Shown here: positions 38,899 to 58,310 of the stretch, in pieces | Position numbering within the stretch: the stretch's first letter is position 1 | Layout of the letters: every line of letters begins with the position of its first letter | Origin: a virus | Lineage: Duplodnaviria > Caudoviricetes | Reading direction: 5' to 3' (one strand) | IMG/VR virus record: IMGVR_UViG_3300021426_000072 | Location: 32,001 to 96,000 of that record | DNA length: 64,000 bases | The notes under the pieces: model-generated | Databases searched by the model: none | What the model saw: the letters and a program-made list of their open reading frames with translations, nothing else | What the model was told of the DNA's origin: nothing | Program-made: the position numbers and the translations under genes

Positions 38899-38982
38899 GC
38901 CGTCGTGGGCGAGAGGTCTATGTCACCTGTCTTGAAAACAGGCAAGCGTACTGCTTCGCAGGTTCAAATCCTGCCGACGGCG
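38899..38982 (+). tRNA. tRNA-Ser(TGA)
   Basis: Cloverleaf; anticodon arm CCTGT-CTTGAAA-ACAGG; long variable arm; GGTTCAAATCC. Confidence 0.85.
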
Positions 38983-38988
38983 CTTTAT

Positions 38989-39061
38989 GCTTCATTAGCT
39001 CAGTTGGCAGAGCACATGACTTTTAATCATGGTGTCCGGGGTTCAATTCCCCGATGAGGCA
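38989..39061 (+). tRNA. tRNA-Lys(TTT)
   Basis: CATGA-CTTTTAA-TCATG; canonical D and T arms. Confidence 0.92.
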
Positions 39062-39084
39062 CTAAAAATTGGAGGATAATTAAT

Positions 39085-39351
39085 ATGGCTAAAGATTTGG
39101 TTAAAAGAAGCTTCAGAATAACATTTACCCGCAAAGCGCAAGATGGTGAATCTATTGATCATCCTGGCTGGTTTGATTCACGAGACAAAAGAGTTATTGA
39201 TTCTACGGAATTTGATGTGAGCTCTTTTGATTATACTTGTGATGAATATCTTCCAGAACTCATAAATTTATTTAATGCGTTTACTGCTGAAAATAATTTT
39301 GATGCGGTGGAAGTTGTTCAGATTGATGAGGTTCCTTATGACGGCGATTAA
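39085..39351 (+). CDS. Hypothetical protein
   Basis: GGAGG RBS; 88 aa. Confidence 0.6.
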   Translation: MAKDLVKRSFRITFTRKAQDGESIDHPGWFDSRDKRVIDSTEFDVSSFDYTCDEYLPELINLFNAFTAENNFDAVEVVQIDEVPYDGD

Positions 39352-39366
39352 TTTGCCGTCGTTTAT

Positions 39367-39440
39367 CGAGATGTAGCGCAGGTTGGTAGCGCATCTGATT
39401 TGGGATCAGAAGGTCGCAGGTTCAAATCCTGTCGTCTCGA
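39367..39440 (+). tRNA. tRNA-Pro(TGG)
   Basis: TCTGA-TTTGGGA-TCAGA; GGTTCAAATCC. Confidence 0.92.
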
Positions 39441-39771
39441 CTTTGGAGTAGTGACTTGCTCCGAACGTCTTCCTGAATTGTTTGTTGGTTGAAATGATAT
39501 ATACCAATAAATGTAAACGACTGTATCTTATTACAGGAGTAATTCATAGACGTAAACCTATTACATATATATTTTGCCTACGTTGCGGGTATATAGCGAG
39601 AAACGGATACTACCTAGTCACAGGAGTTGCAACTTAGAAGTTCCGTGTTACTACAAGGTTCTGAAATTGATGGCAGACGTGAGGTTGGGCTGTAAAGGCG
39701 AGGGTGTGCTGTTAGAAGGTGCATGTGTAATTGATGTCTGATAAAGTAAGAGCCTCGTAGTAGTGTGTTAT

Positions 39772-39845
39772 GCTCCATTAGCTCATAAGGATAGAGCAGC
39801 GGTCTTCTAAACCGCAGGTATACGGTTCGAATCCGTAATGGAGTA
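39772..39845 (+). tRNA. tRNA-Arg(TCT)
   Basis: GCGGT-CTTCTAA-ACCGC; GGTTCGAATCC. Confidence 0.92.
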
Positions 39846-39880
39846 CTGATTTATTTTTTAAACAAAGAAAGGAATAAACA

Positions 39881-40300
39881 ATGAGTTACTGTAAAGATGC
39901 AATCAGTTGTGAAGTCAAATCAAAAGAAGGATTTTATATTGGAGACATTTGCTATGCTCTTGCCGATGAGGTCTATTTTGGAATCTGGGGCAATCATGAT
40001 TTCAAAGATGGCAGTCATCATGTTTCAGAAGCAGATTTGGATTTTGCTGTAGCTTCTACAGCCTTTGGTGACGGAGTTTACTTGGGATCAAATGGATTCC
40101 TGTACGGAGTAGATGCTGGCAATATTGGCATTGTTCCTCTTGAACTGGTTGAGAAAGACATAAATGGCTGTGGAACTGTTTATAACATTCCGGGGAAAGC
40201 TTCTCTGTGTGCCGAAGATGGAAAGTTTATTTTCCGCCTTCCAGATGACAAAGAAATTAAAATCAACACAGTTTATTACGAAGAAGAAGACGATGAGTAA
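39881..40300 (+). CDS. Conserved phage hypothetical protein
   Basis: FYIGDICY...TAFGDGVY...VDAGNIGIVP motif. Confidence 0.7.
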   Translation: MSYCKDAISCEVKSKEGFYIGDICYALADEVYFGIWGNHDFKDGSHHVSEADLDFAVASTAFGDGVYLGSNGFLYGVDAGNIGIVPLELVEKDINGCGTVYNIPGKASLCAEDGKFIFRLPDDKEIKINTVYYEEEDDE

Positions 40301-40315
40301 AGGAGATTTATAAAA

Positions 40316-40858
40316 ATGAAAAAGTTTAAATTGGGTTTGATTGTTCTCGCAATTATTGTCTGCGTTATTGTAGCCGGTTTGTATTTTGTCCATAATGCAG
40401 AAAATACAGCCGTTGGAATGGAAGAGGAAATCAACTCTGCGACATCTGAAATCAACGTGCAGGAAAAGCGCAGAGCTGATTTGATTCCAAATCTTATTGA
40501 GTGTGTAAAAGCTTATGACAAGCATGAATATGAAACACTCCTTGCGCTGATAAATGCTCGTAAACCTGACGACAAAGTTGCCAGTGATGTTCAGCTTGCA
40601 GTTAATGCGATTGCTGAGGCCTATCCAGAATTGAAATCAAGTGAACAGTACAAACAGTTAATGACTGAGCTTGCTGTTACAGAAAATATGATTGCCAATT
40701 ATCGTAATGCATACAATAAACGGGTAAAAGAGTATTCAACTTATGTTCGCAGGTTTCCGCATAGTTTTCTTTTTAACATGACTGGCTATGAAGAAAAGAA
40801 ATATGAATACCTTTATTACGAAGTGTCGGACACAGCTCCGACAATAAATTTTAATTGA
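40316..40858 (+). CDS. lemA: LemA family protein
   Basis: N-terminal TM helix; RRADLIPNL, AEAYPELKS, ENMIANYRNAYN, RRFP. Confidence 0.9.
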   Translation: MKKFKLGLIVLAIIVCVIVAGLYFVHNAENTAVGMEEEINSATSEINVQEKRRADLIPNLIECVKAYDKHEYETLLALINARKPDDKVASDVQLAVNAIAEAYPELKSSEQYKQLMTELAVTENMIANYRNAYNKRVKEYSTYVRRFPHSFLFNMTGYEEKKYEYLYYEVSDTAPTINFN

Positions 40859-40859
40859 T

Positions 40860-41573
40860 ATGGAAGTAACGAAAAGAGAAATACTTTGTTGTGTAATTAT
40901 TTCTTGTGTTATGTTCGTTGTTGGATTGGTCTTACAGCAAGTTATCCGCACGGCAGTAACAGAACGAAATAAGGAATATGAACATGCAATTCATATTCAG
41001 GATACAGACACCTTTGTTTATGGAATGGGCACAAACATTGGTCATGCATTTGTATATGGTGATCTTGTTGCTGTTGATCCTGTTTCGCATGATAATTTGA
41101 AGGGTGAATGGCTGTGGATTCAAAGAATAACAGAGCATTATACTTTGCATTATCGTACAGTTACAGTAAAAGAAGGGAAACAGACAAAAACTGTTCAGCA
41201 GCCTTATTATACTTGGGATAAAGTGGCTACTGATACGTGGCACAGCAAGAAAATCACATTTCTTGGAGTTGAATTTCCTTACGAAAAGATATCAGGGTTT
41301 TATACCAAGAATATAAAAACAGATACTTATGGATACATAAGATACAAATGGAGTGCGAGTGACGTAAAACACATCGGAACAATTTATACGACACTTAAAG
41401 ATAATACAATATCAAATACAAGATTTTATGAATCAATGACTTCGTGGCAAGCCCGTGAAGTCTGTATTATAAATGTTACTTTGTATGTTGTTTTGTTTTG
41501 GATTGTTTGGGTTTTAACAACTGCTGCTTTGTGTTTTGGGTTCTGTTACTTAGAAAATGATTGGCTTGAATAA
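40860..41573 (+). CDS. Two-TM membrane protein coupled to LemA
   Basis: N- and C-terminal TM helices; ends in YLENDWLE. Confidence 0.7.
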   Translation: MEVTKREILCCVIISCVMFVVGLVLQQVIRTAVTERNKEYEHAIHIQDTDTFVYGMGTNIGHAFVYGDLVAVDPVSHDNLKGEWLWIQRITEHYTLHYRTVTVKEGKQTKTVQQPYYTWDKVATDTWHSKKITFLGVEFPYEKISGFYTKNIKTDTYGYIRYKWSASDVKHIGTIYTTLKDNTISNTRFYESMTSWQAREVCIINVTLYVVLFWIVWVLTTAALCFGFCYLENDWLE

Positions 41574-41651
41574 TAAGAAAAAATAAACTTAAAGAAACAG
41601 GGGCATATTATTCTTCAACGGGGAAAAACTTTATAAAAGAATATAGGAAGG

Positions 41652-42816
41652 ATGGCGAAGATGTCTGACATAAGTGACATGATGTACGAACATGGTTTCC
41701 ACGATGGATACCAAAAAGCATTAAGAGAACTGAAGTTGGAACCACCGAAAGACCTTCTCGACATGAGCGATGAAGCAAAGGTAAAGACAATCATTCCGAA
41801 GCTCAAAGGATTGAAGAAGTACATCCAGGATGAAAAAGAACAAATGATCCTTACGGATGCCATGTTCCTTATCAAAATGTGGTTTGAACGGATTCCAAAG
41901 AAGGGTGCGTGGATTTTTACGGGTCAGAAGAACGCATACGGGGGAATCGTGATTGAGTGCCCATTCTGCGAGGACAAATATGCAGTAGCGACTCCGCTTT
42001 CCGAACACTTCTGTCGGAACTGCGGAGCGAAACTGATGGACTAAATAGGAGAATAACGCACCAATGAAATTGCCAATTGTATTTAATCCGATGCCTGTTG
42101 GTGAGGTTTTGAAATACCTTGAAGAGTTGATGAATCGCCGGGTATTGTCCGACGAATGGACGGACTTGATCGACAGAGCAAGCGAACTGCTGAAAGAGAA
42201 AACCGAGGATGCCGTAGAGAGAGCAACGGCAGGAGTACAACCAACGGCATATTGGGTAGAACCGGAAGGCACAGGGCATTGTTCAAACTGCGGATGCGAC
42301 AGGCCGAGTTTTATCAGCGGTTCTGAATGGGACACGGTAAGCACGAAATACTGTCCAAACTGCGGTGCGAAAATGGTACAGGACGGTGACGGGAAATGAC
42401 AATCAGGGAAGAAGGATATGTGGAAGGGTATCGTGATGGATATTCCAAACGGGATGAGGAAATCGTGAGGTGCAAGGATTGCAAAGCATGGAAACAGTAC
42501 GATGATTTGAATCTTGGTGGATGTGAATTGTTCCCAGAATATAACAAAATTGGTGATTGGTTCTGCAACTTTGGTGAACGGAAGGACGGTGACGGGGATG
42601 GCTGAAGTTGAGAACGTAATCAAGGCGTGGAATTGTTGCAACCCATTTAACCGGAAGTGCAAGGAATGTCCGTATGAAAAGGATTGCTATCATGACGGAA
42701 TATCAAGACACATGGTCGCAGATGCCATTGAACTGCTGAAATCCAAACAGGCAGAGATCGAACGGCTGATAGACATGAACGGAGAACTTATAAAGTTGAA
42801 CGGCATGGACATTTAG
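41652..42816 (+). CDS. Cluster of four small Cys-rich Zn-ribbon phage ORFs (41652-42044, 42064-42399, 42396-42605, ~42598-42816)
   Basis: CPFC/FCRNCGAKL, CSNCG/YCPNCGAKM, VRCKDCK..WFC and CKECPY motifs. Confidence 0.7.
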
Positions 42817-43450
42817 TTCGTTAAAGGAGCGAATGTGGAATGATTTATTCCGTTAATTTCAACAATAGAATGAATGCTTTTGCAGGTGGTAGAAAATCAC
42901 GCAGAAAAGCGAGATGGAAGAAGAAAATGATGCGTTATCTCAGCCGGAATTACATGTTTGTTTTCTTCAGCTAATTTATTAAAGGAGCGTTTTAGGATAA
43001 GGTTTTTGTATGACAAAAAAATCAAAAGATTTTATTCCGCTTTCATTTGAAAATGCGAAACGTCTTTTAATAAAAGATGAATATGCGTGGCTAAGAGTCA
43101 CTTATTTTTCTTTTGGAAATAGTTCAAAAATATATCATCTTCGTATCGATGAAGTTTGCAATGAAGGTATTAGGGTAGATGTAATAAAAGGAACTCATGC
43201 GTTACCTTACAACACTTATGGAGAATGCTGGCAAATATATAAGGAAAGTAGGTAAACTATGGAAGACGAGAAAAATAAGGAAGAACAGTTTGATATTCGA
43301 ATAGAGAAAGTAACATATGTTTTGCATGGTGAAAATAATTATGTGCCTGACCCATGTAAAACATGTGCAAACCACCCTGACAATGGAGGAAGTGGAATTT
43401 GTAACTGTATTCTTCCGATTATAAACCAAGTAACTTAACAAAGAAAGAAA

Positions 43451-43753
43451 TTGAATATGAATATCGTGGAAATTTCAACAGATAAACAATGTCCGTTTTG
43501 TGGTTGTAAAAAGAATTATCTTTCGTGCAAATCTTCGAAGTATTCAAAAACGGAAGGTTTTGAAAAGCATAAATGGTATGTAAGATGTTCTAATTGTAAA
43601 GCAACTGGTGGTAATGCGACCGGAATTGTTGCAGTAAAAAAGATTGGAGAACTTCCATCTTTTTGTACGACAGACAAAGTGTTGAAAAGAAAAGCTATAG
43701 ATAAGTGGACTGTTAAATTTAATAATAATAAGGAGCAGCAATATGAATTATGA
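43451..43753 (+). CDS. Lar-like (restriction alleviation family) Zn protein
   Basis: CPFCG...VRCSNCKA...AIDKW pattern. Confidence 0.6.
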   Translation: MNMNIVEISTDKQCPFCGCKKNYLSCKSSKYSKTEGFEKHKWYVRCSNCKATGGNATGIVAVKKIGELPSFCTTDKVLKRKAIDKWTVKFNNNKEQQYEL

Positions 43754-44498
43754 ACTTAACCTGCTTGTTCAAAAATTAAACTCTTGGTCTACCTCATCTA
43801 TTCTTGCAACGGGATGCAGAGTAACGCTTGCTAAAGCAGCGGATGTTATTAAAGAGCAGGATGAAAAAATAACTGAACTTGAACAAAAAAATATTCAGTT
43901 AATTAAAGAGTACAACGAGTTGGTACATAGAAAAGAAGGAGTTAGTGAAACGTTATTATGTCACCTCTTAGAAGAATAACGGGAGATTTGCATATGTCGG
44001 TGGACGAATGGCACAGAATGGAAAAGAAACGTTATTATGCAAAAAAAATAGAATCGATTATTATTTTTATAGGTCTTATTGCGATATTCGGATATCTTTT
44101 CTGCATTCTGTTTAAATAAAAAAACAGACAAAGGAAATATATATGAATTATTTAGACTTATTCTTTTCTCAAAAGCTTGCTATTTCTATGGAAGGTTCTA
44201 CTGCTGAAGAACGCAATAAAATAAATGTCCTATTGGCAGAATATCCTAATAAAGGGGATAAGTATTTTCCTACGGCGTTTTCGGAATTTAATGAGTATGC
44301 TTTTGGAAATGCGATTGTAGGATTTTTTAGTCATCCTTTTTTAACATACGTAACAAAAGAATCTACTACAGGTTTATGGTATAGACAATATCAAATAGTA
44401 ACAACGAAAGAGTTTTTGTCTTTTGAATTCGAAAACGTTAGTTTAAAAGAAATATCTGAAAGTGACATGTTTGAAATTTTTAAAGAAGGTGTTTAAAT

Positions 44499-44726
44499 TT
44501 GGAAAACATTACTCGGTGTCCTTATTGTAAGGGCGCTGTTGAAGTAATTAAACTTATCAGAAAACCAGGAGAAGAATTTCAACCGTATAGAATCCAATGT
44601 CTAAAGTGTAAAGCTTGTGTTGCTCGTGGGCAAAAGTTTCCCAATGAAACTAAAGAGCAGGGCGAACAAAGAATCAAAGAATATAATGCCGAAATGAAAA
44701 GAATCTTTTCTCAAAACAGGGCGTAA
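44499..44726 (+). CDS. Second Lar-like Zn-ribbon protein
   Basis: CPYCKG...IQCLKCKA...IKEYN. Confidence 0.45.
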   Translation: MENITRCPYCKGAVEVIKLIRKPGEEFQPYRIQCLKCKACVARGQKFPNETKEQGEQRIKEYNAEMKRIFSQNRA

Positions 44727-45152
44727 AAGAAACGCAAATAAAGGTTAGTTGACTCGCCCTTCGTATACTCAGGGGATGCCGTGAAAAACATTTCTCTTTC
44801 ACACTTTTATAAAATCCAACGCCCTTATAAAGAGAATGAGCTGTGGTATATTAAAAGTTGAATTAAAGGATTTGTTTTTCAGGTTAAAAATATGCAACTT
44901 TTTGTATAAAAAATATTTTATGAACAACTTCGAGCCGTTGAAATACAAAGGTTTGAGGAGATTTTTTTGGTTTTAAGAATAAATATGCATGAAATAAAAA
45001 TAATATGCAGATTTATTTAATAAATCAGTTTTTTAAAAAATGCAAAAATTGTATAAATTTAAGTAAAATATACTTACAAAAAACGATAAGTATATTTATT
45101 TATATATTTTATCATAACAAACAACAGAAATTCCAAACGAAGGAGAAAGAAA

Positions 45153-45590
45153 ATGAATAAGTGTATTGTTTGTGGAAATCTTGCAATTGATCCGGTTTTA
45201 AGTAAACTGGAATACGTCAACAAAGAAACTGGAGAGATTCTTAACACCAAGGTTTGCAATTTTACTATTGCGTGTGATGACGGCTTTGGGGAGTATAAGA
45301 ATACTCAGTTCTTCCGTGTTGCCGTATGGCGTAAGCTTGGAGAAGCGTGTGCCAAGTATCTGAAGAAGGGCCATCAGGTTCTTGTTTCTGGCCCTGTGTT
45401 TCTGAATAACTACGTGGATAAGAGTAACAATCTGCGTTCTGTTATGGAAATTCGAGCTGATGAAATTCAGTTCCTGAATAACAAGAAACCGGGTGTTGTG
45501 ACTCCAGACGAAAACAAAGAAGCAGAAGAGCCCGAGGCTGTAGAAGAAAATCCAAAGACAGAAGCTGTTCTGGATGACATGCCATATTAA
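45153..45590 (+). CDS. ssb: Single-stranded DNA-binding protein 2
   Basis: MNKCIVCGNL, FTIACD, FFRVAVWRKLGE, YLKKGHQVLVSG, C-terminal DDMPY. Confidence 0.9.
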   Translation: MNKCIVCGNLAIDPVLSKLEYVNKETGEILNTKVCNFTIACDDGFGEYKNTQFFRVAVWRKLGEACAKYLKKGHQVLVSGPVFLNNYVDKSNNLRSVMEIRADEIQFLNNKKPGVVTPDENKEAEEPEAVEENPKTEAVLDDMPY

Positions 45591-45660
45591 GAAATTATCT
45601 AATTACCGATATGGGAGCAGGTTGTGATGGGGCTTGCTCCCTCTTTTTTCGGAGGTTAAT

Positions 45661-46451
45661 ATGACTATAAGATATTATGTTGAAGATACAGATACGTACT
45701 TTGATTCACCTGAAGATGCTGTAGAAGCTTGTATCGATTCTTCTTGGCACGAAGATGATACATATGATTTCAAAGATTGGGTTAATGAAAAGTATACGGC
45801 GTATGAAGTGTTGAATGATGAAGTCAGTCTTTCCAGTTTGCTTGAAGAATATTGCGAAGAGAAAAACGACGAAGATAGAGATGAAGCTCTTTGGGATTTG
45901 GATGGAGCAGAAAATGGATACGTTGTAGAAGTTCATGGCTCTTCTATTAGAGTTGTAATTGAAGAAGAAACCATAGGTCAATCGATTGATATATGTCGTG
46001 AAATGATTGAACAACAGAAACAAAACGCCTTAAAAGAACAAGAAGAGCAAAAGAAAGATGATGATGTTTATCTCTGTGTTTTTCAGGAGGTAAAATAATG
46101 ATTGCTTCTTTAACGGTAAGAAACGTCCAAAGTGAGAAGACGTTTGATGAACTGTGCGCAAAACTAACCGAATACGATCTTGTTCGTTATGTTTTTGATG
46201 AAGGATCATACGATAGCAAAAGAAAGGAAGCCTATTTCTCTTCTTGGGAAGAAGAGAGTTGGCGATATTATCCAGCAGATATGCAAATTATTGCCGAAAG
46301 TTTTCCAAGTCTTGTTTTTGAATTGACTTGCCAAGCTGGTAATGATTACTGGCGTGTTTATTATCAGGATATATCTAATGAAGTCTGCTTCGGAGAAGTT
46401 ATATATCAAGCACCGGAAAAAATAAAGTGGGATGCTCTTGCCCCATTTTAA
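45661..46451 (+). CDS. Two hypothetical acidic proteins (45661-46098, 46098-46451)
   Basis: Coupled ORFs with GGAGG RBS. Confidence 0.6.
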
Positions 46452-46694
46452 TAAGAAAACATTATCATATATTACATGAGTTGAAACATGAAAGGATAAT
46501 GCGTTTCGATGTTTGATGCAGAATTAATAAAACAAAGAATTTTAAACTGTATGAATCCAGAGTATCCATGTGATAACTGTAGATATCGTAATAGTGGATG
46601 TGAGGAACATTTACTGTCTGATGCCGTATGCGTAATTTATGAATTACAAACAGAAATAAATCAGCTAAAAGCAAGTGAACCGAAATAACTAATA

Positions 46695-46811
46695 GTATGG
46701 GTGGCGGAATATGTAGACGCTTAAAACGTAAGGCTTGTCGCCGTTAACTAAAGTTCGACAGTTGCGTGACCGCAGTACTGCTATGTAAGGTGTAAATCCT
46801 TACCCCGTATT
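46695..46811 (+). ncRNA. Aberrant tRNA-like RNA
   Basis: Acceptor GTATGGG/CCCGTAT, D region TGGCGGAAT..GTAGACGC, T arm GTAAGG-TGTAAAT-CCTTAC; no normal anticodon arm. Confidence 0.5.
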
Positions 46812-46816
46812 AGTTA

Positions 46817-46857
46817 GGTACCAAAGTTTGAAGTCATTTAAAAAAATGCATAATGGG
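46817..46857 (+). promoter_or_regulatory. Conserved phage promoter-like motif, copy 2
   Basis: GGTACCAAAGTTTGAAGTCATTTAAAAAAATGCATAATGGG, ending 4 nt before tRNA-Leu. Confidence 0.6.
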
Positions 46858-46861
46858 ATAA

Positions 46862-46943
46862 GCGGATATGGTGAAATGGTAGACACTGAGGACTTAAAAT
46901 CCTTTGGCTTTATGCCGTGAGGGTTCGAATCCCTCTATCCGCA
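46862..46943 (+). tRNA. tRNA-Leu(TAA)
   Basis: GAGGA-CTTAAAA-TCCTT; variable arm; GGTTCGAATCCC. Confidence 0.92.
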
Positions 46944-46957
46944 CTTAGGAGGCTTGT

Positions 46958-47275
46958 ATGGAAAAGAAAACATATTTCTTTATAACTGTTTTACAACGAA
47001 TGAAAAAGGATAAACTTGGTTGGCCTGATACTGGAGCTACGCGGTGCTGGGGGTTTTATACAAATAAAGATACAGCAATCACAGCGCTTCATGAAAACTG
47101 GACGGATATGGAAGAAACGATTTACAAGTATGCCGTTCTGGAGGAGTACGAAGAAGGAATATCCAATTTTACCGGTTACGAACAATGGTTTAAATTTGAT
47201 GTTGAAAAAGACGGTTATTTTGAAATTGACAAACCTCCAGAGACAAATCACTTTGCTGGATGGGCTTTTGGGTAA
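46958..47275 (+). CDS. Hypothetical protein
   Basis: RCWGFY...AVLEEYEEGI phage protein; GGAGG RBS. Confidence 0.7.
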   Translation: MEKKTYFFITVLQRMKKDKLGWPDTGATRCWGFYTNKDTAITALHENWTDMEETIYKYAVLEEYEEGISNFTGYEQWFKFDVEKDGYFEIDKPPETNHFAGWAFG

Positions 47276-47327
47276 TCAAAAGAGAGAAGAAGCAGTTAAT
47301 TACGTCAAACAACAAGGAGGAATAAAA

Positions 47328-47510
47328 ATGAAACATCTATACAACAAGCCTATGGCGGAGAAACTGGTATTCGATTATAGCGAAAACGTAGTGGCATCCA
47401 CTAACAAACCTCATCATGGTGACATGGGAATTGGTCATGGAGGTGGCGGTGGTTGTGACCATAATCCCGGTCATGGAAGCCCTCATAAGCCTCATCCCGG
47501 AAAGCATTGA
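47328..47510 (+). CDS. RiPP-precursor-like peptide (60 aa)
   Basis: AAGGAGG RBS; leader YNKPMAEKLVFDYSENVVAS followed by a His/Gly/Pro-rich core. Confidence 0.55.
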   Translation: MKHLYNKPMAEKLVFDYSENVVASTNKPHHGDMGIGHGGGGGCDHNPGHGSPHKPHPGKH

Positions 47511-47711
47511 TGGAAAAAATAGAAGAAAACTACGTCCGTCGATACCTCATTGGTATTAGTTAGGACAAGATGGATGTTGGTTTTGCAAAAGTAAAAATAA
47601 TTGCAGTTCTTGTAAAGCAAACAGAATTGCTGCAAAACAAGATAAGAAATTATTTAAACACAGAGACAAACAAAAATTATCAAAAGAAAATAATAAACAA
47701 GGAGAAAGAAA

Positions 47712-48494
47712 ATGGCTAATAAGAAGATCAAGGTAGAAGTTGAAACCAAGGAAGGAACTACTGAAACGATGGAGCTCCCTGAACGGGCAACAGAACGAAT
47801 TGAAATCAAGAAAGTTCCTGTGGAAAAAGTGCGTATCAAGATCGTCGGAGATACTCCGCTTCTTGTTCACGCATGGTCTGAAAAGGTTAAGAAGCAGCTC
47901 CTCAATGATATGCAGATGACTAAACGTGAAAAGAAGGAAAAGGAACACGAAAAGAAAGACCCGTTTGCAGACTTTGTTGAGGCTGCTTACTGGATTACTC
48001 CCATGCCGCAGGTGCGTGGTCTTGAACCCGAGAAACAGATCGAACTGTTTGAAAAGGCAATTACCGATGGTGCTCAGTTTGGCTTTCCTACAATTGCCTT
48101 CAAGAAAGCTGCTATTACCGCTTGCTATAGCGCAGGATACATTAAGAGTACGGCTCTTATGCGTCGGCTATTCCATGTGAACGCAGTTAACGGCGCACAT
48201 ATTGGATCGTCTCAGGAGCTTGCTATTATTAAGACGGAAGAACCGCCGGAACTGTCTGAAGACGTTGTAAAGGTTGGCCCTTTTAACAATCGTGTACCTG
48301 ATCTTCGTTATCGTCCGTCTTTTCGTAAGTGGTCTGTTGAACTGGAACTCAGTCTGATTAAGACAGGAATGTTTACAATGGAAGACGTTGTCAATGCAAT
48401 TGATATGGGCGGTTTCATGAACGGCGTTGGCGAATGGCGCACTGAGAAAGACGGAGAATTTGGTAACTACCATGTTTATCGAGATGGGGAATAA
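47712..48494 (+). CDS. Stand-alone Cas7/RAMP-like protein
   Basis: First strand IKIVGDTPLLVH, FPTIAFKKA helix, RYRPSF..W, and C-terminal Gly-rich loop GGFMNGVGEWRTEKDGEFG typical of RAMPs. Confidence 0.7.
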   Translation: MANKKIKVEVETKEGTTETMELPERATERIEIKKVPVEKVRIKIVGDTPLLVHAWSEKVKKQLLNDMQMTKREKKEKEHEKKDPFADFVEAAYWITPMPQVRGLEPEKQIELFEKAITDGAQFGFPTIAFKKAAITACYSAGYIKSTALMRRLFHVNAVNGAHIGSSQELAIIKTEEPPELSEDVVKVGPFNNRVPDLRYRPSFRKWSVELELSLIKTGMFTMEDVVNAIDMGGFMNGVGEWRTEKDGEFGNYHVYRDGE

Positions 48495-48496
48495 TT

Positions 48497-48988
48497 ATGG
48501 CAGCATTTGAATACAAATATCGGATTAACGGTATTGTGAAAGCGCCTGCGGAAGTAACAGGCGAGGTGTGTCAGAATATTATTAGTGAAGAAGGAACTGT
48601 TACTCCAAAAAAGTTGGTTGATGTAAGTAGACCTGAAGACGCTCCTCTTCACGATGAATTTGAGTGGAATGACGATATCGCTGCTGAAAAGTATCGTGAA
48701 GAACAGGCAAGACAGATTATTAAGAACATTGTTATCATTGAAGTGTCAGATGATGTTGATGAACCTAAAGAAGTAAAATGCTGGGTTAACAGTGACCGAG
48801 CGTTTGTTCCGACAGACACGAGGCAGCATGAATATGTAACAATAGATACAGCATTAAACAATGCTGACTGGCGTAATAATTTGATTGAGTCGGCAAAAAG
48901 AGACATGCTTTCATTTGTCCATAAATATAAGAGACTCGGAGAGTTAAATAAAATTATCACCGATATGAGCGAATTCCTTGGTGCCTAA
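48497..48988 (+). CDS. Accessory protein of the RAMP/array locus
   Basis: TPKKLVDVSRPEDAPLHDEFEWNDDIAAEKYREEQARQII; starts 2 nt after the RAMP gene and directly precedes the array. Confidence 0.7.
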   Translation: MAAFEYKYRINGIVKAPAEVTGEVCQNIISEEGTVTPKKLVDVSRPEDAPLHDEFEWNDDIAAEKYREEQARQIIKNIVIIEVSDDVDEPKEVKCWVNSDRAFVPTDTRQHEYVTIDTALNNADWRNNLIESAKRDMLSFVHKYKRLGELNKIITDMSEFLGA

Positions 48989-49044
48989 AAGTTAGAAGAC
49001 GCTATAAGATCTTTCGGAGTAGGTGAAAGGCCTGAATATGGTTA

Positions 49045-49495
49045 GGCAGCCGGGGTTGGCATAGTTGCGTTGAGTAATGTCGAAGAGGGGCAAGGTATGG
49101 CAGTCTTGGTCAGTTGAGTACTGTTACGTTCAGTCAGGTCACGTTGGGGATAGGCAGTCGTGGAGTGTAACGTCACGATAAGTTGTGGATCGGAAAGCGT
49201 TGGCAGTCTTGGTGCTGTTTGTTACGTTAAGACTAGTTCTGGATTTGCTTGTTTAGTTGCGGCAGTCTAGGTACGCTATGATGCGTACTGTTAAGCAGAG
49301 AATAGGCAGTCAAGGTAGTGCCTGTTGAGTTCCGAATTGGATGGTTATGCTATGGCAGTCTAGGTGTGGACAGGAGGCGGTTTGTCTGCGTTGGTCCCGT
49401 TACGGCAGTCGAGGTTAGTTCCGTTATGCTACGACCAGTTGGTTTATGGCAGTCATGGCGAGCTGTTGCAAGTAGAGCTGTGTTCTGACTCAGAA
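49045..49495 (+). repeat. Nine-unit array with 5-nt periodicity (GGCAGYC-NN-[Gxx-NN]n), candidate guide RNA array
   Basis: GGCAGYCNNGG at 49045, 49099, 49153, 49202, 49261, 49305, 49354, 49404, 49448; spacings 54,54,49,59,44,49,50,44. Confidence 0.9.
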
Positions 49496-49522
49496 AAGAC
49501 TTTCAGGAAAGACTGAATGGCG

Positions 49523-49544
49523 GCTCGGAAAGACGAGCATTTTT
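49523..49544 (+). terminator. Hairpin closing the array
   Basis: GCTCG-GAAAGA-CGAGC followed by ATTTTT. Confidence 0.55.
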
Positions 49545-49562
49545 AATATGGAGTGATTGTAA

Positions 49563-49892
49563 ATGAAATATAGTAAAGTTTATAACGCAGATCGAACATT
49601 GAGAGAAGAAATAAATCATTTATTAACCCATGAACCTCGTAGTGAAAGTGAAATGTTCAACGAAAATGATCATCTTTCTATAAGTGTGCGTTATCTGGAT
49701 GGCAAGGTTGTGGTTATTGAAGTTTGTGGCTGTGTTGACTACAAAGAAAATGAGTCCAACATTCCTTGGACACAAGGAATACTATATTCCAAAGAAGGAT
49801 ATGAATTAACTGTAACTGAACCCAGAGATGAGTTTTTTGGAGAATGGAATTTTGTTTACGATGACAATATTTACATCCTGAATGTAATTTAA
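49563..49892 (+). CDS. Hypothetical protein
   Basis: 109-aa ORF with GGAG RBS. Confidence 0.6.
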   Translation: MKYSKVYNADRTLREEINHLLTHEPRSESEMFNENDHLSISVRYLDGKVVVIEVCGCVDYKENESNIPWTQGILYSKEGYELTVTEPRDEFFGEWNFVYDDNIYILNVI

Positions 49893-49951
49893 TCAATCAA
49901 ACCTGAAATATATCAGCATTGGCTGTTTGTAATAAGATAGCTATGACAGAT

Positions 49952-50025
49952 GGATCATTAGCTCAGCAGGTCAGAGCAGTCGGCTCATAACCGATCGGTC
50001 TATGGTTCGAATCCATAATGATCCA
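49952..50025 (+). tRNA. tRNA with CAT anticodon, probably Ile2
   Basis: GTCGG-CTCATAA-CCGAT; body resembles Firmicutes tRNA-Ile2. Confidence 0.85.
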
Positions 50026-50973
50026 CTAATTAGGAGGATAGCGACGAGGAATGAGTGAACCGCATATGTGTATAACTTGTCAGAATTATGAACCGTATCA
50101 TTGTACACTGGACGATTCATATATTGGATATCTGTACTGTGGCACTCCAACGAAATGCAGAGGATGGAGATTGCATGAAAACTATAAAAAGGGTGGCAAG
50201 TTCTATAACAATAGACGGAAAACAGTTCGTTAAAGAAATAAACGATAGATAGGAGATTAGTAAATAAGAATGTTCAATGATGATGAATATGCCAACAAGA
50301 AAATAGAAAATGCCCGTAAGTTGCATTATCTTGAAGGACGAATGAGCGTGGGACTTGAGAAACTGCAACCCGGTGACGGAGCTATTCTTGTGCATCAATG
50401 GGTGTTTGATCTGCTCTCAACGATAGTCAGCTATCTTCTTGAGTTGAGAAGGTGGCAGAAAATCCACGATAACAATTTTTAAGTTACTCAAAAAGTAATT
50501 GAAAAAATAGGAGGATTGCGAATGAGCATGGCGTTAGTGAATAGGATTTGTCCAAAGTGCAAGAATCCAAATTATATGGTTTTCCTTGGCGATTTTTCAG
50601 AAAGATATAAATACAAGTGCATGAATTGTAATAGGTACTTTAATGATGCTGACTTTGAAGAACAGTTTCAGCCTGTTTTAAGAAGTAAGAACTATGTGAT
50701 TGTAGATATGCCGATAGAACAGGCGAGAACGATCATCGGATTAGTCGAAGATACCGTAAACGATGGTGAGTTTGAAACGGTATGGATGGATGACCAGAAA
50801 GAGCATTTGAAAAACTTTTTGGCAAGATACAAGGATGTACGTTAATACGCTAAAGGAGCATATGGCGTATCAAATTGTCGATAACTGAATTGGTAAAATA
50901 TCCGTATGTTTGCTGGTACAACAAGTAATTGGCGGTTAAATTGATACGGTATAATTTAATATACCGTAAATTA

Positions 50974-51072
50974 CGGGCGTTTCGTAACGGAAACGAGGCT
51001 GCGAAAAGATAATGCGTAAATCCATTGTCGAAGTATGAGCTGCGGTGGTTGGTTCGATTCCTGCCCGCTCGA
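50974..51072 (+). ncRNA. Degenerate tRNA-like RNA
   Basis: CGGGCG/CGCTCG ends, D-like hairpin TCGT..ACGA, GGTTCGATTCC T loop; central region atypical. Confidence 0.4.
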
Positions 51073-51075
51073 TAT

Positions 51076-51148
51076 GCCGGTATAGCTCAATGGGCAGAGC
51101 AGTTGATTTGTAATCATCAGGTTTCCAGTTCGAGTCTGGATATCGGCT
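51076..51148 (+). tRNA. tRNA-Thr(TGT)
   Basis: TGA-TTTGTAA-TCA; canonical D and T arms. Confidence 0.88.
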
Positions 51149-51655
51149 CTAGGAATGCTGCTGACTTAATATCGATTAATGGTCAGGTGAAGAGTGCTAT
51201 CGAGAATAGTCTGGCGAAGCAAATTGTCAGATATTGAACCCCCTTCGCGCGTGAAACCAAGAATATTAAATGAGGGTCTTGAAAAAAACATCTTCAGCAT
51301 TCCTTTTACATGGAGAATTACAGGTTAAAATCCTGTGTTCTCCGAAATGAAGGTACATTCAGGGACGCCTGATATTGAAGTCCACCAAAGTCACAGATTG
51401 GCTCGTTCCTTGACCGGGCGAATAAGAAGGGCTCAGGTGCGCACGTAAACCATATATAGAAAATGAAATCTGAGTATATGATAAAAGGACTTCTACCTTC
51501 TAGAGACTGACCAAATAATCGGGATCTTATATATCACTCCTGCGGGTAGTAAATAAGGACGTGGCTACTGAATAAGTACACCTGAAAGAACAGGACAGGG
51601 GCGCAGGTCACGTATAAGATTTCTTAACAGCCCGCCCGGTGGCGCAGTCTCGTAT

Positions 51656-51727
51656 AGCCCCTTAGCGTATCTGGCAGCGCAACGGACTTTGACTCCGTAT
51701 GAGATGGTTCGAATCCATCAGGGGCTG
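51656..51727 (+). tRNA. tRNA-Gln(TTG)
   Basis: ACGGA-CTTTGAC-TCCGT; GGTTCGAATCC. Confidence 0.9.
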
Positions 51728-51756
51728 CTCTTATTAATTGAATGAGGTAAACAAAT

Positions 51757-53698
51757 ATGATGAATGTTTATGATTTGTATCAAGGTTTAATCTGTATGTG
51801 TAAAGACAAAGAATGCTGTGAATGTTATGATTCTTGCCCGTATAAAAAGAGAAATGGGAATAAAGACAATTGTAACTATATGGTAGGACTTGATGCTTTG
51901 GAAACAATTGTAGAGTTAATGCAAGAAGTGGCTCAGTTAAAACAAGCTCTTAATGTTTCTGAAAAGGAGAAAAACGACAATGTTGCTACGACTTAAAGAA
52001 CAAAACGTATCTGGATATTATGGTGTAGAACAAGCTATTATAAGAAAACTTGGAGAAATTCCACCGGAGAGTTTGCTTGTTCAGATTAGAACAAAACACA
52101 GAGAAGATGAAGAATGGCGGGATATAACAGAACTGTTAATTCAAGAAGGAACCTCTGATGATCCTAAATGGATTTGGGAATCTGACTGGTGGGAAGGTGA
52201 GCAGTTTGTTGATCTCGTTGCTGTAGCTAAGATTTGGCAAGTTGACATTAGTGAAGACTTTGCTTTTGAGGAATGATATGACATACAAAGAAGCTGCTGA
52301 TATGATACGCGATGACATGCGTTTACATCATGATTATTTAAGTGGGCAATATAGGAAAGCTCTTAAACTTGCAGTCGAAGTCCTTGAAAAACAAAATGAA
52401 CCGACTTCTCCTAAATGGAGAAGCGATCCTGTAACAAAAGCACAAAAAGAAATGATTGCACAGATGCAGGAAAATGCTGGTATAAATGGAGCGTTACATT
52501 TACCTGAGTTTACGGGAACAACTAAAGGTGAAGCCTGTGATTATATTCAGGCAAACGCCCATAAACAATATGAAACAATGGACTATTTGTGCCATGAAGA
52601 TGCAGGTGACAGAAATGGTTAAGTTGACAGCAAGTCTTGAACACTGGCTTTTTGTAAATGAGCCCAAATTATTGGTTTTAATTGGATTTGGACATCTTGA
52701 ATGTTTTACCGAAGAAATGCAAAAGAAGTATTTGGAGTGGGTACAGACAGAAGAAGGACGGTCATATCTAAAAGGTGGAAAGAACTACCATGACCCAAGA
52801 TAAATAAAAGAAAGAAGAAAAAGAATCATGACTATGTATGTTGATTTTGCTGTTCAAAAGAATTGTTGGAATTTAATTGATAGTTATGGAGAAATGTGTG
52901 TTGGCTGCGGATGCTGCCTAAAAGACAAAAAGAAACGTTATGAAAGCCGCATTCGCTGCCTTGAACGATGGATAGATGAATGGAAAAATTTTGACGGCTG
53001 GATCGAAGGATGTGAAGATCTGCAAAGAAAGAACATCAGGTCAAATCTCAAATACTTTAATCGGAGATTGCGTTATTACAAATCCAGGCTGAAAAACATG
53101 GGTAATGAAAAATGAATAAGACTAAAGCACTTGTTGAACGTATCAACGCTGACGTTGAAATGCTTGTTAATTCAGAGAGTATGACAGATTGTACTTCTGC
53201 TTATGTTCGTGTTATGGACTACCTTGCTAATCTTTATCTTTCAGTAATGAAAAAGCATGTAAAAGCGGGAAAAGATCATATGTCAGTATTGCCAAAGAAA
53301 GATTGTTAAGGAAATGAGAATGTATAGCAAAGTAGATATTGGGCTGAGATGCTGTTTGGCTGATGATAGTGATTGTAAGCTTTGTCCTTATATGGGCAAA
53401 GGCACAGCGAAAATAGACTGCGCAACGCTCCTTATGAGAGACGTTTTAGAACTAGTTGAATGTCAGGAAATAAAGATAGGTATACTGCAAGTCGAAAATA
53501 GGGCATTGATAGATGCACGAATTAGAGCTTCAAAAAGAGAAGATAAAAAGAAAGGCAAACCAAATGAGCGCAACAGTTTATAAATGGATTGTTGTCTATG
53601 AAGATGGTAGAACCGAGGAAAAACGGGGAGAAGCTCCGTGGTCTTTTGCAGATGAATTGGATGAAACTCCAGTTGCTATCATCAGAAACGGATGGTAA
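51757..53698 (+). CDS. Run of small hypothetical phage ORFs
   Basis: Tightly packed co-oriented ORFs of about 60-126 aa, several Cys-rich. Confidence 0.55.
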
Positions 53699-53749
53699 TA
53701 AATTATTGCGGGTAATGGAAAAGGTATAAATTCTTGCCCCGCAATTTAT

Positions 53750-53821
53750 GGCTTGTTAGCCTAGTGGGTTAGGCACGCGGCTGTTAACCGCGCTAGGGGA
53801 GTTCAATTCTCTCACGAGCCG
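53750..53821 (+). tRNA. tRNA-Asn(GTT)
   Basis: CGCGG-CTGTTAA-CCGCG; T loop GTTCAATTC. Confidence 0.85.
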
Positions 53822-54240
53822 CATCTTATTTTATTGCGATGCCTTAGTTGGTCGTAATACAAATAAGATTGAAGGACTTAACGTTCTTCTGGGGGTTGTT
53901 TTTACAACCGCTACCTAGCTAGTAGTAAAAAAAGCTTTAACTGGGTGGCGCCCGCTCCGAAGTTATGCCCGCCAGAGACAAAAGATCGCGTATTCCGTCT
54001 AGCCAGCGGATATAAATCGACGATTTATGTACAGAGCATTAAGTGGTAATTAGATAGGAGCATTATATCATCGCCGCCGCAAGCGACGGCACATACCGGG
54101 AAAACCCCACCTTACCCAAACTTTAAGCATATACATGCTTCCGCATAAAAGTTTGGGTTCTACACGCAGAAATAAAGATAAAATTGTCTGCGTAAAACCA
54201 CCATAACAAAAGGATTAATAAAAAAAGGAGTGATTAATTT

Positions 54241-57886: not shown

Positions 57887-58297
57887 TGCATAAAGAAATA
57901 AATCTTATTGTATAGGGTTTACATTTAATGTTATTAGATGTTTCACTTTGACCGGAAATGGAGGCACGAAGGCCTACGGCCGTCGGGACGACGTACTGGG
58001 CTCGAACCGGTGGCTGCAAAGCGTGCTGCGGGCTGCGAAGTGGCGGAGATGCTCGAGACGCAGTTCAACTGGATCAGACTTATCAGGATCTCGATAATTA
58101 ACTATCGAAATGATAGGTGAAAGCCGGATGACTGAAGAAACTGATGAACGGGAGATCGCGCAAGGAAGCAGGTGAAGTCGTGTTGGCGACAGCGCGGCAC
58201 ACGATCGGAATGAAGGGGCCCGGGGTCACATGCCTCAAAGGCGCCTGCAGCCAGGTCCTCCAGGAGACTCCAGCTCTCAACATTTTTAGTTTATGCA
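57887..58297 (+). ncRNA. Putative retron-like msr/msd ncRNA
   Basis: Flanked by inverted repeat TGCATAAA (57887-94) / TTTATGCA (58290-97) with a G right after the 5' arm; core is 58% GC in an AT-rich genome; immediately upstream of the RT. Confidence 0.6.
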
Positions 58298-58310
58298 AAG
58301 GAAGAAGAAA

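What the first reader, a model, noticed from the sequence alone, without database searches (positions are those of the whole stretch)
47712..49544. Cas7/RAMP-like gene, accessory gene and a 5-nt-periodic array: candidate phage RNA-guided system with a gapped code
Seen: nine units begin with GGCAGYC, and seven of eight spacings equal 9+5n nt (44, 49, 54, 59); one is 50. Each unit parses as GGCAGTC-NN-(triplet-NN)n, e.g. unit 2: TT GGT CA GTT GA GTA CT GTT AC GTT CA GTC AG GTC AC GTT GG GGA TA. In the seven in-phase complete units, 53 of 58 triplets start with G (mostly GTT, GGT, GGA, GTC), while the NN positions vary freely. A hairpin closes the array. No cas1, cas2, cas5, cas6 or nuclease gene is nearby, and there are no CRISPR-type repeats. 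Established: Cas7/RAMP proteins polymerise along guide RNA with a fixed step. Inference: each subunit binds one pentamer and presents NN to a target, so each unit is a guide for silencing competing phages or host genes. From memory (unverified), phage RAMP systems with GGY/NN repeats (VIPR) have recently been reported; this would be a divergent variant with a relaxed G(T/G)N triplet.
Basis: partly seen in the sequence, partly recalled or inferred. Interest (0 to 1): 0.95.

Follow-up and report, generated by a model that had tools for sequence, protein, structure and literature searches.

The report
Phage VIPR guide-RNA system
A 127-kb uncultured phage carries a VIPR system, the CRISPR-related kind first described in 2026: a lone Cas7-like protein, a helper gene and nine guide RNAs built of five-base repeats. 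At least two guides spell conserved motifs in genes of rival temperate phages, so it is a well-supported new example, not a new kind.

Summary

- **Protein.** The 260-aa protein is a true Vipr homologue. hhalign against the SUSP2 phage Vipr gives probability 98.5%, and a profile search hits PDB 36pp at E 6e-10. The AF2 model matches Csm3/Cas7 at Z 9.9. The five RNA-contact residues reported for SUSP1 are conserved.
- **Relatives.** All 80 viral loci with a homologue carry a same-strand period-5 array. 76 of them also have the same helper gene, which is unrelated to SUSP vap1.
- **Grammar.** Each unit is GGCA plus 8-11 G-K-H-N-N pentamers. Units overlap by 1 nt, which fits the "staggered arrays" of the VIPR preprint.
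- **Targets under the published "read two, skip one" rule:**
  - Guide 4 matches 22/22 bases in the Enc34-type SSB gene of 11 diverged viral contigs.
  - Guide 6 matches an HsdM-like methylase motif in 31 genomes, and that gene sometimes sits in the same rival phages.
  - Guide 2 matches ArdC-like genes.
  - For relatives' guides, the skip-0, skip-2 and reversed controls give 0 hits against 42 for skip-1.

Transcription, processing and binding are untested. This scan has already found related VIPR loci on other DNA. Verdict: real, a new member of a known kind.

The parts
47712..48494 (+). vipr: a 260-aa lone RAMP/Cas7-like protein. Residues 34-259 form the RAMP core. The first ~35 residues are an N-terminal extension seen only in this subclade.
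   Evidence: hhalign of A2 against SUSP2 Vipr gives probability 98.5%, E 2e-15, over 184 columns. The profile hits PDB 36pp_D 'SUSP1 Vipr protein' at E 6.3e-10. The AF2 model has pLDDT 88.9. The top Foldseek and VIA hits are all Cas7/Csm3, with Z 9.9. phrog_4652 matches at E 1e-19.
48497..48988 (+). vap-like accessory gene, 163 aa, of no known family. Its invariant motif is S..APLH..FEW....AA..YR..QA.
   Evidence: phrog_15946 matches at E 4e-21. There is no Pfam, NCBIfam or PDB match. It shows no similarity to SUSP2 vap1. A homologue is present in 76 of 80 Vipr loci, either before or after the array.
48989..49044 (+). Conserved 56-nt leader between the vap stop codon and the first anchor.
   Evidence: Mean column identity is 85% across the window and L001-L003, although the vap proteins of those loci are only 46-51% identical to the window's. 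Its function is unknown.
49045..49098 (+). Guide unit 1 (54 nt, 10 NN).
   Evidence: No exact 1-nt-skip match in viral contigs.
49099..49152 (+). Guide unit 2 (54 nt, 10 NN). Probable target: the HExxH motif FHELTHSTGY of ArdC-like genes.
   Evidence: There are 3 exact 20/20 matches in metagenome contigs. Two of them lie in diverged ArdcN + zincin genes, on the sense strand. There were 0 hits in viral contigs.
49153..49201 (+). Guide unit 3 (49 nt, 9 NN).
   Evidence: The 3 viral hits look like chance.
49202..49260 (+). Guide unit 4 (59 nt, 11 NN). Target: the motif AYKNSYFVNA of the Enc34-type ssDNA-binding protein gene of rival phages.
   Evidence: There are 11 exact 22/22 matches in viral contigs. 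All lie in PF10991 genes, with the skip bases at wobble positions that differ among the contigs. There is no match or homologue in the phage's own genome.
49261..49304 (+). Guide unit 5 (44 nt, 8 NN).
   Evidence: Not scanned in public collections.
49305..49353 (+). Guide unit 6 (49 nt, 9 NN). Target: the motif (A)IIQNGSSLF of an HsdM-like N6-adenine methyltransferase gene.
   Evidence: Two of 3 viral hits and 31 of 41 genome hits fall in this one motif, with varied wobble bases. The 10 unrelated hits are at chance level. The gene lies beside the PolA/SSB module in L109, G004, L131 and L146. In G004 guide 6 matches 15/18 and guide 4 matches 22/22.
49354..49403 (+). Guide unit 7 (50 nt). It has one extra base after the fourth pentamer, so it is out of phase.
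   Evidence: No exact hit under a 1-nt-skip reading.
49404..49447 (+). Guide unit 8 (44 nt, 8 NN).
   Evidence: The 5 viral hits look like chance.
49448..49491 (+). Guide unit 9, the last unit. It has no closing GGCAG, and its 3' end is uncertain.
49523..49546 (+). Terminator-like hairpin (GCTCG-GAAAGA-CGAGC) followed by a T run.

Best explanation
This is a VIPR (Viral Interference Programmable Repeat) system of a lytic-looking 127-kb tailed phage.

**Layout.** vipr, a clade-specific vap gene and a nine-unit vrRNA array form one rightward module that ends at a terminator-like hairpin. Each unit is 8-11 pentamers of G-(T/G)-(T/A/C)-N-N. The closing pentamer GGC-AG shares its last G with the first pentamer G-Y-C-NN of the next unit. 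This gives the 5n+4 spacing and shifts the register by one base at each junction.

**Inferred by homology to the SUSP1 structures.**
- One Vipr protomer binds each pentamer.
- H53 and E241 hold base 1, R201 and W242 hold base 2, and R243 holds base 3.
- The NN pair is displayed for pairing.

**Shown here by computation.** The displayed NN pairs read double-stranded targets as NN-skip-NN. The skipped base falls on codon wobble positions, so one guide covers many diverged alleles of a conserved peptide motif.
- Guide 4 is aimed at the Enc34-type SSB gene of a family of temperate phages with a DUF2800 nuclease / SSB / PolA replication module.
- Guide 6 is aimed at an HsdM-like methylase gene that some of those same phages carry.
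- Guide 2 is probably aimed at ArdC-like genes of other mobile elements.

**Inferred from experiments on SUSP1.** Binding silences transcription of these genes, so the phage wins when it meets a resident or co-infecting rival.

**Unknown.** The promoter, the enzyme that cuts at GGCAG, and the role of Vap.
For: **Protein**
- Profile of 23 homologues against PDB 36pp_D (SUSP1 Vipr): E 6.3e-10.
- hhalign against the full-length SUSP2 Vipr: probability 98.5%, 184 columns.
- AF2 model with pLDDT 88.9. Every top structural match is Cas7/Csm3/Cmr, with Z up to 9.9 over residues 34-259.
- SUSP1 contact residues H17, R138, D177, W178 and R179 (bioRxiv 10.64898/2026.04.26.720927) align to H53, R201, E241, W242 and R243. 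All five are invariant in 67 sequences.

**Array**
- The statistics are confirmed.
- It is the only long period-5 array in the genome.
- All 80 homologous viral loci have a same-strand array next to vipr.
- 76 of 80 loci have GGCAG-delimited 5n+4 units, 330 units in all. Their pentamer composition is G92 / G69,T25 / Y85 / N / N.

**Code and targets**
- Guide 4 has 11 exact 22-base hits, all in PF10991 SSB genes with differing wobble bases.
- Guide 6 hits one HsdM motif in 31 of 41 genome matches. About 17 chance hits are expected and 10 unrelated hits were seen.
- For relatives' guides with 18 or more specified bases and at most 1 mismatch, skip-1 gives 42 hits from 14 guides. Skip-0, skip-2 and reversed guides give 0 each.
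- 37 of those 42 hits put NN on codon positions 1-2, and both strands are hit.
- There is no self-target. The phage's own SSB belongs to a different family, PF00436.
Against: - No RNA data.
- No promoter was identified.
- Six of nine guides have no convincing target yet.
- The ArdC target rests on only two homologous hits.
- Position 2 of the triplet is T more often than G here, although the residues that cradle G2 in SUSP1 are conserved. The homology-based contact model may therefore not transfer exactly.
- There is no 3' tail or pseudoknot as in SUSP1, so filament capping and processing must differ.
- Whether binding represses, and whether Vap is needed, was not tested.
Confidence: 0.88

Rival explanations
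1. It is the same VIPR machinery, but its main purpose is counter-defence. Guides 6 and 2 would silence restriction-related genes of the host or of its mobile elements (type I R-M HsdM, ArdC), rather than fight rival phages.
For: 31 HsdM-family hits lie in bacterial MAG contigs, 17 of them from Treponema or Spirochaetaceae, and most have no phage gene within the 8 kb fetched. The protein has HsdM_N + N6_Mtase domains typical of type I R-M. Other windows of this scan reported guides against R-M genes, but those notes are unchecked.
Against: - The HsdM-like gene lies within a few kb of the PolA/SSB module in L109, G004, L131 and L146.
- G004 carries targets of both guide 4 and guide 6.
- Guide 4 and 14 guides of relatives hit phage replication genes.
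- Silencing hsdM after entry would not remove enzyme that is already made (general knowledge).
- An earlier, similar methylase claim in this scan partly fell on re-check.
Confidence: 0.15
2. The guides act on RNA, by antisense binding to mRNA as in type III CRISPR Cas7 complexes, and not on DNA.
For: The closest solved folds are Csm3 and Cmr subunits, which bind target RNA. Guides 4 and 6 of this window both match the antisense strand, so they would be complementary to the mRNA.
Against: - Guide 2 matches the sense strand.
- Among relatives' guides, 30 of 42 hits are same-sense and could not pair with the mRNA.
- SUSP1 VIPR binds dsDNA and silences from either strand (bioRxiv 10.64898/2026.04.26.720920).
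Confidence: 0.05
3. The array is not a guide array. It could be a degenerate tandem repeat, a set of protein-binding DNA iterons, or a remnant coding sequence that only happens to sit beside a RAMP-like gene.
For: There is no expression data. The pentamers are degenerate. Two short ORFs (50 and 56 aa) overlap its 3' half.
Against: - A period of 5 is incompatible with coding.
- The same grammar, with hypervariable NN, is kept beside vipr in 80 of 80 loci down to 37% protein identity.
- NN strings hit conserved genes elsewhere only under the skip-1 code.
Confidence: 0.02

Closest known systems
VIPR systems with 'staggered' vrRNA arrays and relaxed repeat consensus (bioRxiv 10.64898/2026.04.26.720920; fig. 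S18 legend and the type-classification methods)
   Same: - A lone Vipr RAMP with a vap gene and pentamer vrRNAs.
- Units that abut with a 1-nt overlap, so the end of one unit is the start of the next.
- Repeat consensus forms looser than GGY (the paper lists NNNGG, YNNNG and NNNNG).
- Phage-borne, with rival mobile elements as targets.
   Different: I could not see the figure or the data tables. Whether this GGCAG-junction clade and its vap family are among the paper's seven types is therefore unverified. The paper states that staggered arrays were not among the architectures confirmed by sRNA-seq.
Type II VIPR of Escherichia phages SUSP1/SUSP2 (Vipr, vap1, four vrRNAs; PDB 36pp)
   Same: - Homologous Vipr over 184 columns, with RNA-contact residues conserved.
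- The vipr-vap gene pair is followed by an array.
- The 1-nt skip rule applies and skipped bases fall on wobble positions.
   Different: - Vipr here is 260 aa, against 195 aa in SUSP2, and carries an N-terminal extension.
- The vap gene is unrelated to vap1.
- SUSP vrRNAs are ~100-nt units of strict GGY-NN, each with a ~40-nt structured 3' tail and its own spacer.
- Here the units are 44-59 nt and tail-less, joined only by GGCAG, with G-K-H triplets.
Class 1 CRISPR-Cas backbone subunits (Cas7 / Csm3 / Cmr4)
   Same: The RAMP fold, with an RRM core, a glycine-rich loop (GVGEWR) and a thumb. The inferred mode of action is also shared: one subunit per fixed step of guide RNA, with periodic base flipping.
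   Different: - No CRISPR repeats.
- No cas1, cas2, cas5, cas6, large subunit or nuclease.
- A 5-nt step with only 2 pairing bases, rather than a 6-nt step with 5.
- Guides are hard-wired rather than acquired.

Membership tests
VIPR system | A Vipr protein: a minimal RAMP (RRM core, G-loop, thumb) homologous to characterised Vipr | tested here: met
   hhalign probability 98.5%, E 2e-15, against SUSP2 Vipr. PDB 36pp_D hit at E 6.3e-10. AF2 model matches Cas7/Csm3 at Z 9.9.
VIPR system | Residues that hold the conserved triplet (SUSP1 H17, R138, D177, W178, R179) | tested here: met
   They align to H53, R201, E241 (a D-to-E change), W242 and R243. All five are invariant in the 67-sequence alignment A2. 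This rests on alignment only, not on a structure of this RNP.
VIPR system | vrRNA genes next to vipr: tandem pentamers with a conserved triplet and a hypervariable NN | tested here: met
   Position 1 is G in 53 of 58 pentamers, position 3 is G only once in 58, and the NN positions are flat. Arrays are present in 80 of 80 homologous loci. The family logo is given. The triplet here is G-K-H rather than strict GGY.
VIPR system | Noncontiguous target code: NN pairs read with one skipped base | tested here: met
   Guide 4 matches 22/22 in 11 SSB genes. Guide 6 matches in 31 HsdM genes. Relatives' guides give 42 hits under skip-1 and 0 under skip-0, skip-2 or reversed guides. This is computational only.
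VIPR system | Minimal locus with a vap accessory gene and no cas operon or CRISPR array | tested here: met
   The vap-like gene is linked to vipr in 76 of 80 loci. No cas or nuclease domains and no CRISPR-type repeats were found nearby.
VIPR system | vrRNAs are expressed and co-purify with Vipr, and the RNP binds or represses DNA | not testable with these tools
This needs sRNA-seq, pull-down and reporter assays.
VIPR type II (SUSP1 / P. fulva) | A vap1 accessory protein | tested here: not met
   hhalign of A3 against SUSP2 vap1 gives probability 0.2%.
VIPR type II (SUSP1 / P. fulva) | ~100-nt vrRNAs, each ending in an invariant structured 3' tail (pseudoknot) | tested here: not met
   Units of 44-59 nt abut directly at GGCAG with no tail. 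The SUSP2 arrays are shown for comparison.
VIPR staggered-array architecture (fig. S18 of 10.64898/2026.04.26.720920) | Adjacent vrRNAs overlap by 1 nt, so the end of one is the start of the next | tested here: inconclusive
   The sequence fits. GGC-AG is in frame with the preceding unit, and its last G is base 1 of the next unit's G-Y-C-NN, which gives the 5n+4 spacing. Only the figure legend could be read, and no supplements are held.
CRISPR-Cas class 1 | A repeat-spacer array with cas adaptation and effector genes | tested here: not met
   No direct repeats beyond the 7-nt anchors. No cas families in the neighbouring ORFs.

The most novel reading that the evidence does not exclude
This Vipr clade may be a VIPR type whose biology is not yet described. 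Its features are tail-less GGCAG-joined guides, a G-K-H scaffold that tolerates T at the position SUSP1 reads as G2, and an obligate partner of no known family, present in 76 of 80 loci on either side of the array. On this reading the register break at GGCAG sets the filament ends, and Vap, rather than an RNA pseudoknot, caps or processes each guide. In addition, some guides (HsdM, ArdC) would be aimed at restriction and anti-restriction functions rather than at replication genes.
Probability: 0.25. Interest if true: 0.55.

Novelty: new member of a known kind. Interest (0 to 1): 0.38.

Why it matters
VIPR was described only in 2026, and its experiments cover type II systems of enterobacterial and Pseudomonas phages. 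This locus extends that picture in three ways.
- It shows by computation, with controls, that the same "read two, skip one" code holds in a distant clade of ruminant-gut phages. That clade has a different accessory protein, no RNA tail and a looser scaffold triplet.
- It names concrete natural targets that can be put straight into a reporter assay: the SSB, PolA, DUF2800 nuclease and HsdM-like genes of a widespread temperate-phage family.
- It shows guides aimed at the most conserved peptide motifs with wobble positions skipped, which is a broad-spectrum design.

It does not change what kind of system this is.

Tried and rejected
- **Single-sequence AF2** of Vipr gave an unusable model with pLDDT 38. 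It was replaced by the model built from the alignment.
- **Family searches.** Pfam and NCBIfam gave nothing for Vipr or Vap. A PDB profile search and the ESM Atlas gave no function for Vap.
- **Complex prediction** of Vipr with Vap returned no verdict, score 0.00. This is no evidence either way.
- **Self-targeting.** No match of 80% or more in the phage's own genome under skip 0, 1 or 2. Skip 3 only finds the guides themselves.
- **Window guides against other loci.** The 80 Vipr loci gave nothing above control level. In the five complete target contigs, only guides 4 and 6 hit.
- **Guides without exact hits.** Guide 1 and guide 7, read with a 1-nt skip, had no exact hits in viral contigs.
- **Hits judged to be chance.** Guide 3: two identical contigs plus one non-coding site. 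Guide 8: out of frame or unrelated.
- **ArdC homologues** are absent from the target-phage set and from the phage's own genome.
- **The short period-5 signal** at window 28286-28339 lies inside a large ORF and has no anchors, so I treated it as chance.
- **The weak TIGR04423 (type III CRISPR-associated) hit** of ORF 49563-49892 scores 14.9 bits against a cutoff of 40. The ORF is also not conserved in relatives' loci. Rejected.
Full report
**Observation**

The stretch reads as described. GGCAG[CT]C occurs nine times between 49045 and 49448, with spacings of 54, 54, 49, 59, 44, 49, 50 and 44. Base composition predicts about 0.02 anchors in 404 nt.

In the seven in-phase units, 53 of 58 triplets begin with G. 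Position 2 is T28/G18, position 3 is G only once, and the two NN positions are flat.

A sliding period-5 G scan of the window and of the whole genome finds one long signal, at 49045-49452 on the + strand, and one short stretch inside a large ORF. The genome is a single 127,247-bp contig whose start recurs about 166 nt from its end (its first 30 nt match again at position 127,082), so it is probably complete. It encodes terminase, portal and head proteins and nine tRNAs within the window.

A terminator-like hairpin with a T run sits at 49523-49546.

**Grammar**

The anchor is better parsed as GGCA followed by pentamers. The last G of GGCAG, together with the following T/C-C, forms the first triplet (G-Y-C-NN). 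GGC-AG itself is an in-frame pentamer of the preceding unit. Units therefore overlap by one base, their length is 5n+4, and the register shifts at every junction. The 50-nt unit has one extra base after its fourth pentamer.

**The protein**

Pfam finds nothing for the protein. The homology evidence comes from profile and structure comparisons:
- A profile of 23 homologues hits PDB 36pp_D, "SUSP1 Vipr protein", at E 6.3e-10.
- I fetched the SUSP2 locus as L081. hhalign of a 67-sequence alignment against its Vipr gives probability 98.5% over 184 columns.
- With that alignment AlphaFold2 gives pLDDT 88.9.
- Every top Foldseek hit is a Cas7-family subunit. VIA-align gives Z 9.9 to Csm3 over residues 34-259.
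- The SUSP1 residues reported to hold the GGY triplet are H17, R138, D177, W178 and R179 (bioRxiv 10.64898/2026.04.26.720927). They align to H53, R201, E241, W242 and R243, all invariant in the family.

**Relatives**

A scan of viral contigs returned 80 loci with homologues at 37-83% identity.
- All 80 have a period-5 G array on the same strand next to vipr.
- 76 have GGCAG-delimited 5n+4 units, 330 units in all.
- The family-wide pentamer is G92 / G69,T25 / Y85 / N / N. This window and its close relatives use T at position 2 more often.

The second gene (163 aa, phrog_15946, no other match) has a homologue in 76 of 80 loci. Its position varies:
- It sits before the array in this subclade.
- It sits after the array in the more distant one.

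It is unrelated to SUSP vap1. Cultured Gordonia, Mycobacterium, Pseudomonas and cyanobacterial phages also carry homologues of this Vipr, annotated as hypothetical.

**Targets**

I applied the published rule, in which each NN pairs and one target base is skipped between pairs (bioRxiv 10.64898/2026.04.26.720920).

*Guide 4* (22 specified bases)
- It has 11 exact matches in viral contigs, while two 20-base guides have none.
- All 11 lie in the gene of an Enc34-type ssDNA-binding protein (PF10991, E 1e-65 to 1e-82), at the motif AYKNSYFVNA. The skipped bases fall on wobble positions that differ among the contigs.
- A 16-base guide gave only 5 hits in the same collection. A 22-base chance match is therefore expected about once in a thousand scans; this is a rough inference.
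- The phage has no PF10991 gene and no self-match. Its own SSB is PF00436.

*Guide 6* (18 specified bases)
- It hits two diverged HsdM-like methylase genes in viral contigs.
- In 596 billion bases of genomes it has 41 hits. About 17 are expected by chance. Ten are unrelated, and 31 lie in one motif, (A)IIQNGSSLF, of that gene family. The host genomes are Treponema, Prevotella, Bacteroidales and Clostridia MAGs from rumen and gut.
- This gene lies beside the PolA/SSB module in L109, G004, L131 and L146. G004 carries both a 22/22 guide-4 site and a 15/18 guide-6 site.

*Guide 2*
- It has three exact 20-base hits in metagenomes.
- Two are in diverged ArdC-like genes, at the HExxH motif and on the sense strand.

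**Controls for the code**

I scanned 306 unique guides from the relatives against 648 kb of fetched target DNA. For guides with 18 or more specified bases and at most one mismatch:
- The skip-1 rule gives 42 hits from 14 guides.
- Skip-0, skip-2 and reversed guides give none.
- 37 of the 42 hits put NN on codon positions 1-2.
- 30 hits are same-sense and 12 are antisense, which argues for DNA rather than mRNA as the target.

The genes hit form the replication module of a temperate-phage family with an antirepressor gene. Two of its records are classed as proviruses. The module is made up of:
- a family A DNA polymerase;
- the SSB;
- a DUF2800 PD-(D/E)XK nuclease.

**Mechanism**

*Shown*
- The gene pair, the array grammar and their conservation across relatives.
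- The homology to Vipr.
- The match of NN strings to conserved rival-phage genes, only under the one-base-skip code.

*Inferred from SUSP1 work*
- One protomer binds per pentamer.
- The triplet is sequestered and the NN pair is displayed.
- The complex binds dsDNA and silences transcription.

*Unknown*
- The promoter.
- What cuts at GGCAG.
- What Vap does.
- Why the 56-nt leader is 85% conserved.

**Comparison and novelty**

The locus meets every VIPR feature that I could test. It fails the two type II features, vap1 and the tailed vrRNAs. It fits the legend of the preprint's "staggered arrays", an architecture the preprint says was not among those confirmed by sRNA-seq. I could not read the figures or tables, so I cannot assign the type.

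Earlier notes of this scan describe related VIPR loci on other DNA. One is a ruminant-gut relative with the same architecture and rival-phage targets. A similar methylase-target claim there partly fell on re-check. For that reason I read the HsdM hits as a gene of the rival phage family first, and as a host defence gene only as a rival explanation.

**Verdict**

This is a real VIPR system, a new member of a known kind, with useful and testable natural targets.

Noticed in passing
window 48989-49044: The 56-nt leader between vap and the first anchor is 85% identical across four phages. The vap proteins of the three relatives are only 46-51% identical to the window's. It could be a promoter or a processing signal. 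No clear hairpin or promoter consensus was seen.
   Followed up: partly
L012-L080 compared with window and L001-L011: Gene order differs between clades. It is vipr-vap-array here and vipr-array-vap in the more distant clade. The vap family stays linked to vipr in 76 of 80 loci.
   Followed up: partly
window 45153-45590: The phage's own ssDNA-binding protein is a classical OB-fold SSB (PF00436, E 6e-20), a different family from the Enc34-type SSB that guide 4 targets.
   Followed up: yes
window 49563-49892: The 109-aa ORF just after the array has a sub-threshold hit to TIGR04423, a type III CRISPR-associated family (E 0.024, 14.9 bits against a cutoff of 40). It has no homologue in the 80 related loci, so the hit is probably chance.
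   Followed up: partly
window 47016-47510: The ORF upstream of vipr ends in a His/Gly/Pro-rich low-complexity tail (…HHGDMGIGHGGGGGCDHNPGHGSPHKPHPGKH). It has no family match.
   Followed up: no
window 38899-53822: Nine tRNA genes (Ser, Lys, Pro, Arg, Leu, Met, Thr, Gln, Asn) are scattered among small ORFs around the VIPR locus. tRNA-Met lies 60 nt after ORF 49563-49892.
   Followed up: no
window 58293-59465: A 390-aa protein matches phrog_2825 'polymerase' (E 3e-45) and, more weakly, a reverse-transcriptase phrog (E 1e-12).
   Followed up: no
window 26662-29103 and 60306-63173: Two large paralogous proteins (813 and 955 aa) both match phrog_8308, of unknown function. The first contains the short period-5 G stretch at 28286-28339.
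   Followed up: no
phage records H1-H30: Cultured Gordonia phages (Pipp, UmaThurman, ODay, Ecliptus), 25 Mycobacterium phage records (for example Donkeykong and Saal), a Pseudomonas phage and a cyanophage encode homologues of this Vipr (29-34% identity), all annotated as hypothetical. I did not inspect their arrays.
   Followed up: no
L109 2089-3657: In one target phage contig, an ISL3-type transposase gene lies between the HsdM-like gene and the replication module.
   Followed up: no
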